Below, piece after piece: positions 1-21,187 of a stretch of 21,187 bases of DNA (its first letter is position 1; each line of letters begins with the position of its first letter). This DNA comes from Octopus sinensis (taxonomy: Eukaryota): assembly GCF_006345805.1 (NCBI RefSeq), contig NW_021823770.1, positions 1-21,187 on the forward strand, written 5' to 3'. Under the pieces are notes generated by a model. The model ran no database searches. It was not told the DNA's origin and saw only the letters and a program-made list of their open reading frames with translations. The position numbers and the translations under genes are program-made.

Positions 1-131
1 TTCTGCTGAAGAGCGTAGGCTCGAAACGTAAAAGAGTTTCTCACCTTCACGAGAGTCAAACTAATACATTTGTTTGTTTACACACCTGTCTTCGTCTTTT
101 GTTTTGTTTGCTTTTTTATGTAAATTCCAAC
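1..131 (+). mobile_element. Probable 3' end of a Penelope-like/non-autonomous retroelement with a degenerate minimal hammerhead motif, followed by (TA)n
   Basis: CTGAAGA (6-12), short hairpin GAGC-GTAG-GCTC, GAAAC (23-27), GTA (28-30) with palindromic ACGT; then a T-rich tail and (TA)n. Truncated by the window start and stem I pairs poorly. Confidence 0.45.
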
Positions 132-175
132 TATATATATATATATATATATATATTTAATATATATATATATAT

Positions 176-212
<37 letters not shown>
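132..212. repeat. (TA)n microsatellite
   Basis: Nearly pure TA dinucleotide run. Confidence 0.97.
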
Positions 213-216
<4 letters not shown>

Positions 217-327
217 CCTTTGAACGTGACAATGGACTAATACTCGCTGGAATCCATTGAATTCTCATTTTAACTTGTCTGCAATTGAACAATGTGATAA
301 CAAGAAATGTGAAGCCTTTGAAAGTTT

Positions 328-417
328 TCTCCTGATGAAAAGGTGTTGCCTTTGGATTTCCTTAATGGATTGTACATTAACAATGTAAAACAGCATCCTT
401 TGAAACGATCGTAGGGA
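328..417 (+). ncRNA. Type I hammerhead ribozyme motif (Penelope-like, palindromic stem III)
   Basis: Stem I TCTC(328-331)/GGGA(414-417); core CTGATGA (332-338); stem II AAAGGTGTTG(339-348)/CAGCATCCTTT(391-401), 10 bp with one bulge; GAAA (402-405); stem III palindrome ACGATCGT (405-412); cleavage triplet GTA (411-413). Confidence 0.72.
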
Positions 418-1240
418 TGGGCTTGAATGGACTCTGTTCTGGTTACTTTACACTTAATTTTTTTATGTTTATACTCTTGTATTTTTATATACTTATATTA
501 TTTTAGCTCCATTGCTTTAAATTTTTAGTCGCCTTCATTATGCATGAATTTGTTCCATATATTTTTCTTCATTCGACTTCACTCATATTACCCTTTCAGG
601 TTTTATCAACTTTTATTCGTGTATATCTGTATATTCTATACTATTGGGTTTTATCATTGGGTGCCTTGTTGTTTTAATATATATTATATATATTTATATT
701 CCATTTTTGATAATTTGAGAATGATATAAAGTTGTTTTGATCAATTGGAGTGTTTATTCATTATGCCTTTCAAGTTCTCTCTCCCTCTTTCTCCATTTCT
801 CTTGCTTACACGTGACCATCATCCATCTTTCTCTTCCTCACGTGATCATCTTTCTTTTCTTTCAGGACTGTCCAAAGGACAGCACGTATCATATCTCTCT
901 CTTCTACCTTTTCTCTTGTCAAAAAAAAATATTTCTCCAGTGTTCACTATTTTACCCTCGTTCTGGTCTAACGACCCTCCATGTTTGTTTTCGTTCGGTT
1001 TCCTTGTATCTCTCCATTGTCCAGTTTTTGGTCCCAACTTTGATCCTCCATAAATCCCAAATTTTATTTTGGTACATATGGGAGCAACTGTCTTCGAAGA
1101 CTCATACTGTCGTTCAATGGTCGAAATAAGGAGTAGATAGACAACCGACAACTGATGAAGGGTCTTTCTTTGGGTTACGTGTCCTGTTTTCCATTTGTTT
1201 CTCTTGTTGTTTGTGTATTGAACTCATTTGTTTTCGTATT

Positions 1241-1288
1241 TCATGTTGTTTACTGTTGGTGACGTCCTGTACCCATATATGCATATAT
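1241..1288 (+). repeat. End of an unclassified interspersed repeat running into (TA)n
   Basis: GTGACGTCCTGTACCCATATATGCATATAT (1259-1288) recurs as an exact reverse complement at 4393-4422. Confidence 0.7.
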
Positions 1289-1906: not shown

Positions 1907-3057
1907 TATATATATACACCAGATATGTAGATGATATACTAGTTGTAATGGATACAGTTGAACAAATTGAGAGACTAAAGCAATAATTAGAAAACACCTG
2001 TACTAAAATTTAGCATCCAAAATGATAGCTGACCTCGCTTTTAGACATAAATATACAGATAAAAAAAGACTGGTGCATTGCGTCAGCTTACACGAAGGAA
2101 TCAAACAGATGAATATAATTACCTGGAGATACTGAATGCCCACGCAACTATTAGATGTCAATGGTAAAATGAACCATCAGAAGAGCATTTTGTTCTCGTC
2201 TACAAACAATACATTGGAGAAAAGAATGTATAGAATAAAGCAAGCAATAATAACGGAGACTAATGGATCAAACTATAGAAGAATGCAGCCACAAATATAT
2301 CAGAGAATACACCTAACAGAAGTCCCCAAGCAACGCATGAAATTATATCACATGAACCAAACGCACAAAAACTATCGTACGGATGAACATATTGATTAAA
2401 ACCTTGGTAAAACATAACACAAAGTTTAATAAATAGTATATTACCCACACCACAAACCCTCCACATCAATAACAGACCATAAATAAGTAAACCCGGGAGC
2501 AAACTGTGGATGGTTGATATGATTTATAAAGTTGCAAGGTTCTGGACCTAACTGTTAGAATGTTGGTCAGACCAGTTCAACACTTTCATGTAAGCTCACC
2601 AGCTATTGTACAATATTACACATCCCACCACCAAACATTAAATAGCTAATTACTAGAGGAGAATATGTATATACTTATTAAAATTCCACGTAAAAACAGA
2701 AGATTAATTATGGAAAACATAGTCATATCGTAACATCGCGTTAAATTAACGCGAAAAAAAAAAAACCACGCATGTCAAAAAATTAACACGGAGTTACGGA
2801 GATCGCAACAAAAAAATCAACACATGACTGTTGATGCATGAAGCTAAGAGTATAAGAAACATTTGACGAGAAAGCTAACACGAAATCAGTGAGTGTATTA
2901 GAAACAATAGAGACGCCAAATATAATCAATTCTTGAAAATGAGAGAATGGAAACGTCGATTATGAATTTAGAAGATCTATTGTTCAAAACACATCGCAAA
3001 AAATTTATAAAATACGAAAAATACAAAAAAGAAACTAAGACATAGTTGTGTATTTAA

Positions 3058-6460: not shown

Positions 6461-6722
6461 TGGTGGTGGTGGTGGTGGTGACGGTGGTGGCGGTGGTATT
6501 GTCACAGTCATAGTCGTCGTCGTCGTCGTCGCCATCATCATTGCCATCGTCGTCATTATCATCATCATCATCGTCGTCGTCATCGTCGTCATAATCGTCA
6601 TCATCACAACCATCACTATCATCATTGTCCTTGTCATCATCATCATCATCGTCGTCGTCAGCATCATAACTACTGTCACCACCACCACCACAACCACCAC
6701 CACCACCACCACCACCACCACC

Positions 6723-6756
<34 letters not shown>

Positions 6757-6917
6757 TCGTCGTCGTTGTCGTCAGCATCATAACTACTGTCACCACCACC
6801 ACCACCACCACCATCACCACCACCATCATCATCATCATCATCATCATCATCGTCGTCGTCGTCGTCGTCATCGTTGTCAGCATCATAACTATTGTCACCA
6901 CCACCACCACCACCACC

Positions 6918-14084: not shown

Positions 14085-15920
14085 AATAGAGAGAGACCTA
14101 GTAAAGAAATTAGAAGAGATACTTAGAAGTGGCGTCGCGTCCAACGTACTGGCGGCGAGGTTGGCCCTCGATCAACACTTCAACGCCAGATACGAATGTC
14201 GTATTGTCAGAGCTAGTGTGCGTACCCTGAGAAACGAAGGAATTGCAGCCCCCGAGAGGCCTGGGCGGCGGAGGCGTAACGTGGCAACAAAGCCACCATT
14301 CGAGCTTTGGTGGATGAACAGGGGCGTGAATTACTCGAGCCCGAAAGGATGTGTAAGTCCTTTCAGCAACACATTGCTCGACTGTTCGGGACAACTGGTG
14401 GGTCAAAACGCAGGGTAGACTTTAGTGCCTATTTGCATAGCCTGTCATGACTCTCAGCAAGAGAGGGAGAGTGTTGTGAAAGTTTCATTACAAGTACGGG
14501 ATGCGATGGCAAGCTGCGCGAGAGACAAGTTACCAGGCTTGGATGGTCTGCCCTACGAGCTTTATATTCATATGTCAGACTTGTTTGGAGACGTCTTGGC
14601 AACAGTCTACTGCAACTGGCAGCAAAACAAGAGTATTCCCAGTTTTTTAACCCGAGGAGCGGTGATTCTGCTAAAGAAATACCCAAACAAGGGGAACGTT
14701 ATAGATAATTTTCGGCCCATCACTCTGCTCAACACAGATTTGGCCAAGGTGCTAGCCGAGAGGTTGGCGCTTGTCATCGAGAAACTGGTCGATAAGGCGC
14801 AAACATTGGCCGTGCCGAGCAGAAGTATCCACGACAACCTCTATCTGATGCGCTACATCATAGATAGAGTAGTGAAGGAACCTAGCATGGGTGGGGCGCT
14901 GATCAGTTTGGATCAATCGAAAGCTTTCGATAGGGTCGACCATTGAGACGTGGAGGCTGTCCTTAGGGCGGTTGGTTTCGGTCCAGTCCTCGTGGTTGGA
15001 TCGCTGCTTTGTACAGCGGCATCCACTCAGTAGTTCGCGTAAATGGTCATCCATTTAGACCATTTAGATGACGTTGAACAGGCATGGTCGCCGTTTGTGA
15101 GATACGGTTTTCCCACAGCTCGTCCCTTTGACCGAACTGCAATCATGGATCAAGCAGAGACCAAGGCCAGGCGAATGGCATTGCGAATGTCACCATGCTC
15201 TCGAGGAGCTCTGCCGTCCGGGTTCAAACTTGTGCGATTTCAATTCCACGAAGTCGTTCTATAGAGGATTAGTGAAGGGGAGGTGCGACAACGTTCTTGG
15301 GAAGAATCTGGGCGTCGACGGAGAATACCTGAACCGCCTATTCATGACCACTTTTGGGCCAGGACTTATGGATAATTTCCAGAGATCCTTGGCCTGGTAG
15401 TGCTATTGGGAAGTATTTACCGTTCGAGATAAGTTCTACAGACACGGTTCAAGAAACACCTGTGGGCCTATGTCGAACGGCTGCTGTCACTTGTTGGGTG
15501 AATTCGGTTGTCAGCCGAATTTATCGTGAATATTACCCCGCCACCTACCTTTAACTGGGAAAGGCAAAGCATTTTTTTATTATTTTACTGGTGGCTACGG
15601 TGAAAGAATATGTATAGTGGACTCGTTTGAAAAGTTTAGAGACAAACATTTTCCTCCTCGGCCAACCTCTCATCAACTTTTTCAAGTATTACTTGAGAAG
15701 GAAGGTGAGAATAGAGATGGAAGTTTTAACAAAAGGTGGGTGAATGTGGCAAGGATGGTACGCATGAATAACGGAACCTCCTTGAGGATGATCCTATAAA
15801 ACAAAGAGAGAAAGAGTGTTTTGCTCTCATGTTATTTTTTCATTTTAAAATTTTTATTCGTTTCCGGGGTTACCGTGGTTCTTTTTCGCAGGTTTTTCTT
15901 TCCACGGATAAACCTAGTCA
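14085..15920 (+). mobile_element. Decayed, 5'-truncated and internally deleted Tx1/L1-clade LINE (ORF2 reverse transcriptase pseudogene plus probable 3' UTR)
   Basis: Motifs KLPGLDGLPYELY, NFRPITLLNTD, RSIHDN, LDQSKAFDRVDH; stops and frameshifts; QGCPL/YADD segment deleted near 15070; ORF2-like end at 15799; aligns with the copy at 18781-21187. The 3' boundary is approximate. Confidence 0.9.
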
Positions 15921-16976: not shown

Positions 16977-17368
16977 CTAGCAGTATCGCCTGGCGTTGCT
17001 CGGGTTTGTAAGGGAAATAACTATAAAGCATTTTTAGAGAGTTATAGCAAAAAATAGCAAAAAATGCATTAAAAATGGAAAAAATATGATGGTAATTTTT
17101 TTTTAAATCGTTGACTCATCGTAGACATTTTTAGAGAGTTACTTCCCTTATATTAAAAAAAATATGCATTAAAATGGAAAAAAATGATGGTAAATTATTT
17201 TTAAAATCGTAGACTCATCGTAGACGCGCGCTAATACCCAGAAGGGCTCGATATGAATCACGACTATAAGATACCTGGTTTCGGTTAAACTGCACCGCAA
17301 AATGTGGGTGTAGTTAGGAATCTAAATCGGAGTAGACAGACACACAACCTTACATTTATATATAAAGA
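16977..17368 (-). mobile_element. Non-autonomous Helitron, copy A (392 bp)
   Basis: On the minus strand: A|TC 5' end, subterminal GC hairpin CCCGAGCAACGCCAGG, CTAG|T 3' end, no TSD; internal tandem duplication of about 98 bp. Confidence 0.85.
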
Positions 17369-17560
17369 TTAAGCCGTATTGATAATTGACTGTTAAATAT
17401 AAATCTTAGTGTCATGTATTTGAAAATTCTTTACTTTATTTGGGTTGGTCTTTCCTAAAAATACAGCCTTACCGGTTTTCTACTTCTTTTACAGGAATTT
17501 AAATTAGCTCATACATAGAAATTTATAGAGAGAATGTTAGCTTTTAATATTCTATTATTA

Positions 17561-17952
17561 TCTTTATATATAAAAGAGAGGTTGTGTGTCTGTCTCCTAC
17601 GATTTAGATTCCTAACTACTCCCACATTTTGCGGTGCAGTTTAACCAAAACGGGTATCTTATAGTCGTGATTCATATCGAGCCCTTCTGGGTATTAGCGC
17701 GCGTCTACGATGAGTCTACGATTTAAAAAAAAATTGACCATAATTTTTTTCCATTTTAATGCATTTTTTCGCTATTATATAAGGGAAGTAACTCTCTAAA
17801 AATGTCTACGATGAGTCAACGATTAAAAAAAATTTACCATAATTTTTTTCCATTTTTAATGCATTTTTTAATATTTTTTGCTATAACTCTCTAAAAATGC
17901 TTATATAGTTATTTCCCTTACAAACCCGAGCAACGCCGGGCGTTACTGCTAG
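17561..17952 (+). mobile_element. Non-autonomous Helitron, copy B (392 bp)
   Basis: A(17560)|TC 5' end, hairpin CCCGAGCAACGCCGGG (17925-17940), CTAG(17949-17952)|T; reverse-complement homolog of copy A. Confidence 0.87.
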
Positions 17953-18090
17953 TTATATATATATCAGCAGCCAAGCTTTTATTTTTTAGTCTTGTTTAAA
18001 TAGACATGACGCCAAGAGAAATAACACACTACAAAATGATTAATAACACCAGACCTATGTAATTCTAACGTCTTTTGGGTTTTTATAATG

Positions 18091-18172
18091 AGCTACTGAC
18101 GAGAATTTTCTGACAACTCAGATTCTTGAATATGAATTTCTTGTCTTTCTGTATGAAACAATTGTAGGAGCT
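18091..18172 (+). ncRNA. Degenerate type I hammerhead-like motif
   Basis: AGCTA CTGACGA (18096-18102) ... GAAAC AATT GTA GGAGCT; palindromic stem III ACAATTGT and GTA triplet (18164-18166). Stem I (AGCT/AGCT) is out of canonical register and the stem II base is weak. Confidence 0.45.
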
Positions 18173-18278
18173 ACACGAATAAAAAAGTTATCATCCATAT
18201 TAACATCTAATCTCCTCCATTTACGTAAATATGAACGAATGTGTTGAACTCTGTTTAATAAGTTAAATCATATACTTA

Positions 18279-18653: not shown

Positions 18654-21187
<2,534 letters not shown>

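What the first reader, a model, noticed from the sequence alone, without database searches (positions are those of the whole stretch)
328..417. Complete hammerhead ribozyme core with palindromic stem III and a long stem II insert
Seen: all hammerhead core nucleotides in the correct order (CTGATGA...GAAA...GTA), 4-bp stem I, 10-bp stem II enclosing a 42-nt loop with its own hairpin (TACATT/AATGTA), and self-complementary ACGATCGT as stem III. Established: type I hammerheads with short palindromic stem III occur in Penelope-like element pseudo-LTRs and can cleave as dimers. Inference: this is a potentially active ribozyme in a non-coding cephalopod Penelope-like or retrozyme-like family. No RT or GIY-YIG ORF is visible nearby.
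Basis: partly seen in the sequence, partly recalled or inferred. Interest (0 to 1): 0.75.

Follow-up and report, generated by a model that had tools for sequence, protein, structure and literature searches.

The report
Long-armed hammerhead of octopus Hydra retrotransposon
This is an intact-looking self-cutting RNA (hammerhead) motif in the decayed tail end of a Penelope-like jumping gene of the Hydra type, in what is likely an octopus; it is predicted to cut only as a pair, and it is one of roughly 28,000 motifs in this genome whose second arm is much longer than in published Hydra elements.

Summary
The motif is real: full hammerhead core, 4-bp stem I, 10-bp stem II (one bulge) closing 42 nt, and an 8-nt palindrome as stem III. 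It is not a non-coding retrozyme. Window 213-~775 is a solo, 5'-truncated, ~6%-diverged 3'UTR/pLTR copy of a small, old Penelope-like family; longer copies run upstream into a broken RT and GIY-YIG endonuclease with Hydra-clade motifs. About 30,000 motifs of this long-armed form match genome-wide against 1,934 for the reversed control, in many Hydra-type families. Stems I and II covary across families, and the stem III palindrome changes sequence while staying self-complementary at its centre, which a monomer cannot use; this points to selection for dimers. Arm length varies continuously and its sequence is not shared, so it is probably not a separate domain. Rfam misses the motif. Cleavage and transcription are untested; this copy is probably a fossil. 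Hammerheads in Hydra elements are published (PMC8557442); I found no paper on the long-armed class. The scan reported the same class earlier on other DNA. Verdict: new variant of a known kind.

The parts
213..775 (+). Solo, 5'-truncated copy of the 3'UTR/pseudo-LTR of a Hydra-clade Penelope-like family; 5.8% from the family majority; short 3'-end class
   Evidence: longer copies continue upstream into GIY-YIG and RT remnants
132..212 (.). (TA)n microsatellite abutting the 5' end; likely insertion target
   Evidence: (TA)n preference reported for Hydra elements
328..331 (+). Stem I, 5' strand (TCTC)
332..338 (+). Core C3-A9 (CUGAUGA)
339..401 (+). Long arm, 63 nt: stem II 339-348/391-401 (A-U closing pair, bulged U396) enclosing 42 nt that fold as an irregular hairpin
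   Evidence: arm MFE -14.0, z -2.2 vs mononucleotide shuffles
402..405 (+). Core G12-A15.1 (GAAA)
405..412 (+). 8-nt palindrome ACGATCGT: stem III, predicted to pair between two molecules
   Evidence: self-duplex -10.0 kcal/mol vs +2.4 as a 2-bp hairpin
412..413 (+). U16.1 and A17; predicted cut after 413
   Evidence: position in the hammerhead consensus (established knowledge); not shown to be cut
414..417 (+). Stem I, 3' strand (GGGA; GAGA in the family)

Best explanation
The motif is a type I hammerhead in the pseudo-LTR of a Hydra-clade Penelope-like retrotransposon, here left in a solo, decayed, 5'-truncated copy; in the active element it likely cut RNA only as a strand-swapped pair joined through the 8-nt palindrome, and its 63-nt arm is likely a tolerated, lineage-wide hairpin extension of stem II rather than a separate domain. 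Shown: the motif, the link to RT and GIY-YIG remnants, the pLTR end lying directly before the ORF, the genome-wide class, covariation between families. Inferred: two pLTR hammerheads of a tandem (or two) transcripts pair through the palindrome (8 bp) with stem I formed in trans and cut after A17, trimming multimeric precursor RNA to unit length; cutting is slow or optional, since most copies were made from RNA that spans the site. This particular copy is probably a fossil that has no partner of its family nearby.
For: Family: 55 matches among 40 scored of 170 candidates, 72-90% identical apart from the window itself. Copies L006, L010, L023 run into a GIY-YIG remnant (PF01541 E=1.6e-4, 22.4 bits vs cut-off 22.6); L056 holds RT remnants, endonuclease and the start of the 3'UTR in order. 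In L086 the family's 3' end (6646-6760) lies 18 nt before the part matching residue 1 of a sister ORF (6778). Motifs match the Hydra definition: RW[RH], DKT in sister families, CxCx5C, CxxC..E..N..CxH. Class: CTGANGA-N48-66-GAAAYNNNNRTA 29,983 matches vs 1,934 reversed control; with GAAACGATCGTA 3,992 vs 2; with GAAACATATGTA 3,134 vs 5. Across 15 clusters gathered without a pairing demand on these stems: stem I 49 of 60 Watson-Crick (permuted mean 21.6, 0 of 10,000), stem II base 48 of 60 (24.3, 0 of 10,000). Dimer: in the 30 loci, where the middle four bases were free, 17 are perfect palindromes and 24 have a complementary central pair (chance about 3% and 25%), with centres AT, TA, CG and GC all used; that central pair cannot form in a monomer. 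Active monomer fold of this copy is 5.9 kcal/mol above its MFE; active dimer is 3.0 below two monomers; in 7 of 20 motifs modelled the active dimer equals the cofold MFE. Arm: 1,949 further matches with 18-47-nt arms, so length is a continuum, and distal sequence differs between families. 26 of 30 copies start upstream of position 400 and span the cut site, in line with uncut RNA being the main template for an anole element in vitro (PMC11167929, passages).
Against: No cleavage data. For this copy the active dimer is still 3.2 kcal/mol above the cofold MFE, and it has A10.1-U11.1 instead of the G-C pair described as highly conserved (PMC4209133). The family's own DKT region is deleted in L056 and its CxCx5C is mutated in the copies read, so Hydra membership rests partly on sister families joined to it in an RT tree (support 0.994); no published Hydra sequence was in that tree. 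Families are related, so permutation counts overstate independence; alignment A1 was mostly built from hits that were required to pair. For three arm types (C, E, G) no linked ORF was shown. Pfam did not recognise the RT.
Confidence: 0.8

Rival explanations
1. Same element, but the long arm is a selected functional part: a binding handle for the element's RT-endonuclease or a source of tertiary contacts that speed up cleavage.
For: Arms of about 50-66 nt persist in families whose RT sequences are far apart in the tree; many fold as one long irregular hairpin with z of -3 to -7.6; with the same palindrome, 48-66-nt arms outnumber 18-47-nt arms 3,992 to 1,949.
Against: No shared distal sequence or loop between families; arms of 19-44 nt occur in multi-copy families; several arms, including this one (z -2.2), fold weakly; published Hydra elements manage with 26 nt or less.
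Confidence: 0.3
2. The arm carries a polyadenylation signal so that host 3'-end processing and ribozyme cutting compete at the same place.
For: AATAAA/ATTAAA lies in the last 28 nt of the arm in at least half the members of 8 of 15 clusters, 22-33 nt before the cut site in the representatives.
Against: Absent from this family and 6 other clusters; arms are AT-rich and the positive clusters may share an ancestor; no control run; no poly(A) data.
Confidence: 0.08
3. A non-autonomous, non-coding retrozyme.
For: Most copies are short and non-coding, with 5' ends clustered at 280-299 (11 of 30); animal retrozymes are proposed to derive from pLTRs (bioRxiv 10.64898/2026.07.22.740005, parts 1-2 of 5 read).
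Against: No tandem array of the unit; 4 of 30 copies, the window's included, extend to 213-219 and longer ones continue into EN and RT; inverted 5'-truncated partners as in coding PLEs.
Confidence: 0.04
4. Chance arrangement of short motifs in AT-rich DNA.
For: No Rfam hammerhead match.
Against: 0 of 300 shuffles; thousands-fold excess over reversed controls for the palindrome-specific patterns; covariation.
Confidence: 0.01

Closest known systems
Hydra-clade Penelope-like elements and their hammerheads (Craig et al. 2021, PMC8557442; sections and File S1/S2 rows read), including Hydra-1_Obim from an octopus
   Same: C-terminal GIY-YIG without CCHH, CxCx5C linker, RWK-like and DKT motifs, (TA)n targets, type I hammerhead in the 3'UTR/pLTR with a short self-complementary stem III.
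   Different: The 26 Hydra rows of File S2 have stem II of 3-7 bp and loop 2 of 3-10 nt (26 nt or less between the core halves) against 63 nt here; their stem III is 3-4 bp around a 1-3-nt loop, here a perfect 8-nt palindrome. Hydra-1_Obim's listed hammerhead (8-nt loop 2, ACCA-A-TGGT) is a different motif, so this is another family.
Minimal and palindromic type I hammerheads of metazoan PLEs (Cervera and De la Pena 2014, PMC4209133, parts 1-2 of 4 read; Lunse et al. 2017 seen only as a title and through review PMC6765202 passages)
   Same: pLTR location, short stem I, palindromic stem III, predicted dimer cleavage with low activity.
   Different: Published helix II is 6-8 bp with G10.1-C11.1; here A-U closes a 63-nt arm.
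PLE-X1_sMoe hammerhead of a spike moss (File S2 of PMC8557442)
   Same: 9-bp stem II with a 35-nt loop: a published precedent for a long arm in a PLE hammerhead.
   Different: Unrelated, endonuclease-less plant clade; a single family flagged as deviating, not a class of tens of thousands.
Animal non-LTR retrozymes (bioRxiv 10.64898/2026.07.22.740005, parts 1-2 read)
   Same: Type I hammerhead, relation to pLTRs.
   Different: Retrozymes are non-coding tandem repeats; this is a dispersed truncation of a coding element.

Membership tests
Type I hammerhead ribozyme | CUGANGA, GAAA and NUH in order around three helices, ends in stem I | tested here: met
Type I hammerhead ribozyme | Helices supported by covariation | tested here: met
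   across families; within the family not informative (neutral decay)
Type I hammerhead ribozyme | G10.1-C11.1 closing pair of stem II (usual, not absolute) | tested here: not met
   A339-U401 in this family; other families vary; several published Hydra rows also lack it
Type I hammerhead ribozyme | Match to an Rfam hammerhead model | tested here: not met
   no hammerhead family at E<=10; the minimal motif at 6-30 is missed too
Type I hammerhead ribozyme | Self-cleavage after H17 | not testable with these tools
   needs an in vitro assay; only assembled contigs were available
Penelope-like element (EN+) | Single ORF with RT and C-terminal GIY-YIG | tested here: met
   broken in this family; near-intact in sister families L066, L068, L069
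Penelope-like element (EN+) | pLTR arrangement, inverted 5'-truncated partners, optional tail | tested here: met
   3' end directly before the ORF; inverted partners in L007, L008, L016, L020, L022, L027; two 3'-end classes about 120 nt apart
Hydra clade | RWK-like motif, DKT, CxCx5C linker, no CCHH, CxxC and CxH around E and N | tested here: met
   RWH/RWR and CRLC..E..N..CNH in this family; DKT and CNCR...C intact in sister families; DKT region deleted in L056
Hydra clade | Insertion into (TA)n | tested here: met
Hydra clade | RT phylogeny with the published Hydra reference set | not tested
   reference sequences were seen in the supplement only; tree holds genome copies and database homologs that share the motifs
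Non-LTR retrozyme | Non-coding unit in head-to-tail tandem arrays | tested here: not met

The most novel reading that the evidence does not exclude
An octopus radiation of Hydra retrotransposons has evolved an obligate-dimer hammerhead class of about 28,000 genomic copies, invisible to Rfam and to published descriptors, in which each family's 8-nt palindrome acts as a pairing code (only like pairs with like) and the 50-66-nt arm is a selected handle that couples cleavage to the element's own RT-endonuclease.
Probability: 0.2. Interest if true: 0.75.

Novelty: new variant of a known kind. Interest (0 to 1): 0.45.

Why it matters
The role of hammerheads in Penelope-like elements is open: they are nearly universal, cut poorly in vitro and were dispensable in the one reconstituted system. 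Dozens of families in one genome, some with identical young copies, give a natural covariation series and ready constructs to test dimer cutting, family-specific pairing and the role of stem II length. The class also shows that descriptor and Rfam searches undercount animal ribozymes by tens of thousands per genome, and suggests re-examining the 'half cores' 35-50 nt apart reported in Naiad elements. This single copy is an ordinary decayed insertion.

Tried and rejected
Rfam scans: no hammerhead hit. One search used wrong coordinates and hit a SINE; unused. Homolog search with a 127-aa RT piece found nothing; the 547-aa sister ORF found 67. Within-family conservation as a test of selection: core 4.8% vs flank 7.7% changes, 14 of 27 copies keep all 11 core bases; too weak and biased by hit selection. 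Pile-up of 5' ends at the cut site: 4 of 30 start at 406-430, not clearly above the scatter of 11 starts between 319 and 430. A pseudoknot between the arm and the stem I flanks was looked for by eye; no pairing shared across families was seen. The 3'-end mapping was spoiled by TA repeats and redone. Lunse et al. 2017 is not held. No covariance model was built; no protein fold was predicted. Literature searches for the long-armed class found no description; only File S1 rows, File S2 and search passages of the 59-part supplement of PMC8557442 were seen, and subscription papers, Dfam and Repbase were not searched.

Full report
Observation. No shuffle of 300 gave a motif at this stringency. Rfam reports no hammerhead for the window or for 280-460 alone.

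What the repeat is. A genome search with 213-730 gave 55 matches among 40 scored of 170 candidates. The 27 copies (of 30 fetched) that span the motif differ from their majority by 4-13%, this one by 5.8%; 14 keep all 11 core bases. Only 11 places match a tight family pattern: a small, old family. The window's copy starts at 213 right after (TA)n. Copies L006, L010 and L023 continue upstream into a broken GIY-YIG domain (PF01541 at E=1.6e-4, just under the curated cut-off), whose stop lies about 55 nt upstream of the position matching 213-219, so the whole copy is 3'UTR. L056 holds, in order, RT remnants (STKNIPIPS, LRWHAF, LKDHK, YRDD, FLDV, SNHP), the endonuclease and the start of this UTR. 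In L086 the family's 3' end lies 18 nt before the ORF-homologous sequence, the pLTR-ORF layout. Six of the 30 loci have an inverted, truncated partner. 5' ends cluster at 280-299 (11 of 30), 26 of 30 copies span the cut site (two of the 30 are halves of one inverted pair), and 3' ends fall in two classes, 761-786 (11 of 23, including this copy) and 888-896 (9 of 23), like the optional PLE tail but longer than the 30-40 bp reported.

Clade. Craig et al. define Hydra by RWK, DKT, a CxCx5C linker, no CCHH, CxxC and CxH around the catalytic E and N, and (TA)n targets (section 11 read). This family shows RW[HR], the C-terminal CxxC/CxH and TA targets; sister families with near-intact ORFs show all motifs. 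In an RT tree the family groups with those sisters at 0.994. Named homologs of a sister ORF are from Argonauta, Octopus and a sea cucumber, which is the basis for 'likely an octopus'. The published octopus family Hydra-1_Obim has a different, short-armed hammerhead.

The long arm is a class trait. Sister families found by RT similarity carry the same architecture with other sequences. Genome-wide, CTGANGA-N48-66-GAAAYNNNNRTA matches 29,983 times against 1,934 for the reversed control, an excess of about 28,000. Palindrome-specific patterns give 3,992 vs 2 and 3,134 vs 5. Of the 20 regions fetched around such motifs, 8 gave a tblastn match to the Hydra-type RT or endonuclease (L121, L123, L124, L126, L127, L130, L138, L139); the other 12 gave none and are unassigned. 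Many motifs sit in inverted pairs with identical sequence, so some families are young. In 15 clusters with two or more distinct motifs (126 motifs in all, singletons left out), stem I pairs in 49 of 60 and the stem II base in 48 of 60 positions, against permuted means of 21.6 and 24.3. Alignment A1 gives 10 of 13 pairs with changes on both sides, but most of its rows were selected for pairing.

Why a dimer. An 8-nt palindrome cannot form its inner pairs as a hairpin. If only monomers mattered, the middle bases would be free. In the 30 loci, where they were unconstrained and chance hits are included, 17 are perfect palindromes and 24 have a complementary centre; CGATCG, CATATG, CACGTG, CAGCTG, TGGCCA, CAATTG, CGGCCG and CGTACG all occur. 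For this copy the palindrome gives -10.0 kcal/mol as a duplex and +2.4 as a hairpin; the active monomer is 5.9 above the MFE, the strand-swapped dimer 3.0 below two monomers but 3.2 above the best cofold. In 7 of the 20 motifs modelled the active dimer is the best cofold. This agrees with published dimer cleavage of PLE hammerheads at low rates (PMC4209133; review passages). It is inference from sequence and energy models, not a measured activity.

What the arm does. With the same palindrome, arms of 18-47 nt match 1,949 times, so length is continuous; distal sequence is not shared between families, and folding strength ranges from none to z about -7.5. I therefore favour a tolerated hairpin extension, with a selected protein-binding or tertiary role as the main rival. 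AATAAA/ATTAAA on the arm's 3' side in 8 of 15 clusters is a lead that does not apply to this family.

Comparison with print. Hammerheads in Hydra pLTRs are published; the 26 rows of File S2 have 26 nt or less between the core halves, and one plant PLE has a 35-nt loop. Craig et al. also note Naiad 'half cores' 35-50 nt apart, which I did not test. Seven searches found no description of the long-armed class. The scan's own notes (consulted after my reading was formed) report the same class on other DNA of this and other genomes; they are unchecked AI notes and not independent support.

Verdict. A real hammerhead motif in a decayed Hydra-PLE end; new variant of a known kind; interest 0.45, carried by the class and the dimer evidence, not by this copy.

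Noticed in passing
window 1-131 (+): A second, minimal hammerhead motif (CTGAAGA...GAAACGT, 6-30) in the end of a different repeat that also abuts the (TA)n; the 24-mer has 174 exact matches vs 0 control and 6 of 6 fetched loci share about 100 nt. No endonuclease motif printed for those loci; clade not determined.
   Followed up: partly
window 18086-18176 (+): Another long-armed motif (52-nt arm, palindrome ACAATTGT) with a broken stem I; no relative among the fetched loci.
   Followed up: partly
window 1152-1260 (+): CTGATGAAGGG half core with no matching GAAA; probably a deleted remnant of another PLE end.
   Followed up: no
window 1912-2700 (+): Heavily broken reading frame with RYVDD and a downstream stretch that recalls a PLE RT thumb (likeness recalled, not shown); no match to the Hydra set.
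   Followed up: partly
window 14110-15400 and 18882-21133 (+): Two broken LINE-type reverse transcriptase copies (RVT_1, E=2e-7 and 4e-11), unrelated to the hammerhead.
   Followed up: partly
window about 16977-17952: A long inverted repeat that looks like a MITE, seen by eye.
   Followed up: no
window about 1497-1890: An abundant SINE-like repeat that recurs in many loci.
   Followed up: no
family loci L002-L030: Two 3'-end classes about 120 nt apart, and a 10-nt indel just upstream of stem I that splits the family in two.
   Followed up: partly
L121, L122, L123, L125, L071 and others: AATAAA or ATTAAA on the 3' side of the arm, 22-33 nt before the cut site, in 8 of 15 clusters; no control run.
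   Followed up: partly
L066, L068, L069: Near-intact Hydra-type ORFs of a sister family, usable for biochemistry; in L069 the ORF is fused in frame to a fragment of another PLE.
   Followed up: no
PMC8557442 File S1 (Naiad_Ovul): Naiad families marked 'HHR_half_core' with halves 35-50 nt apart may be long-armed hammerheads missed by the descriptor.
   Followed up: no
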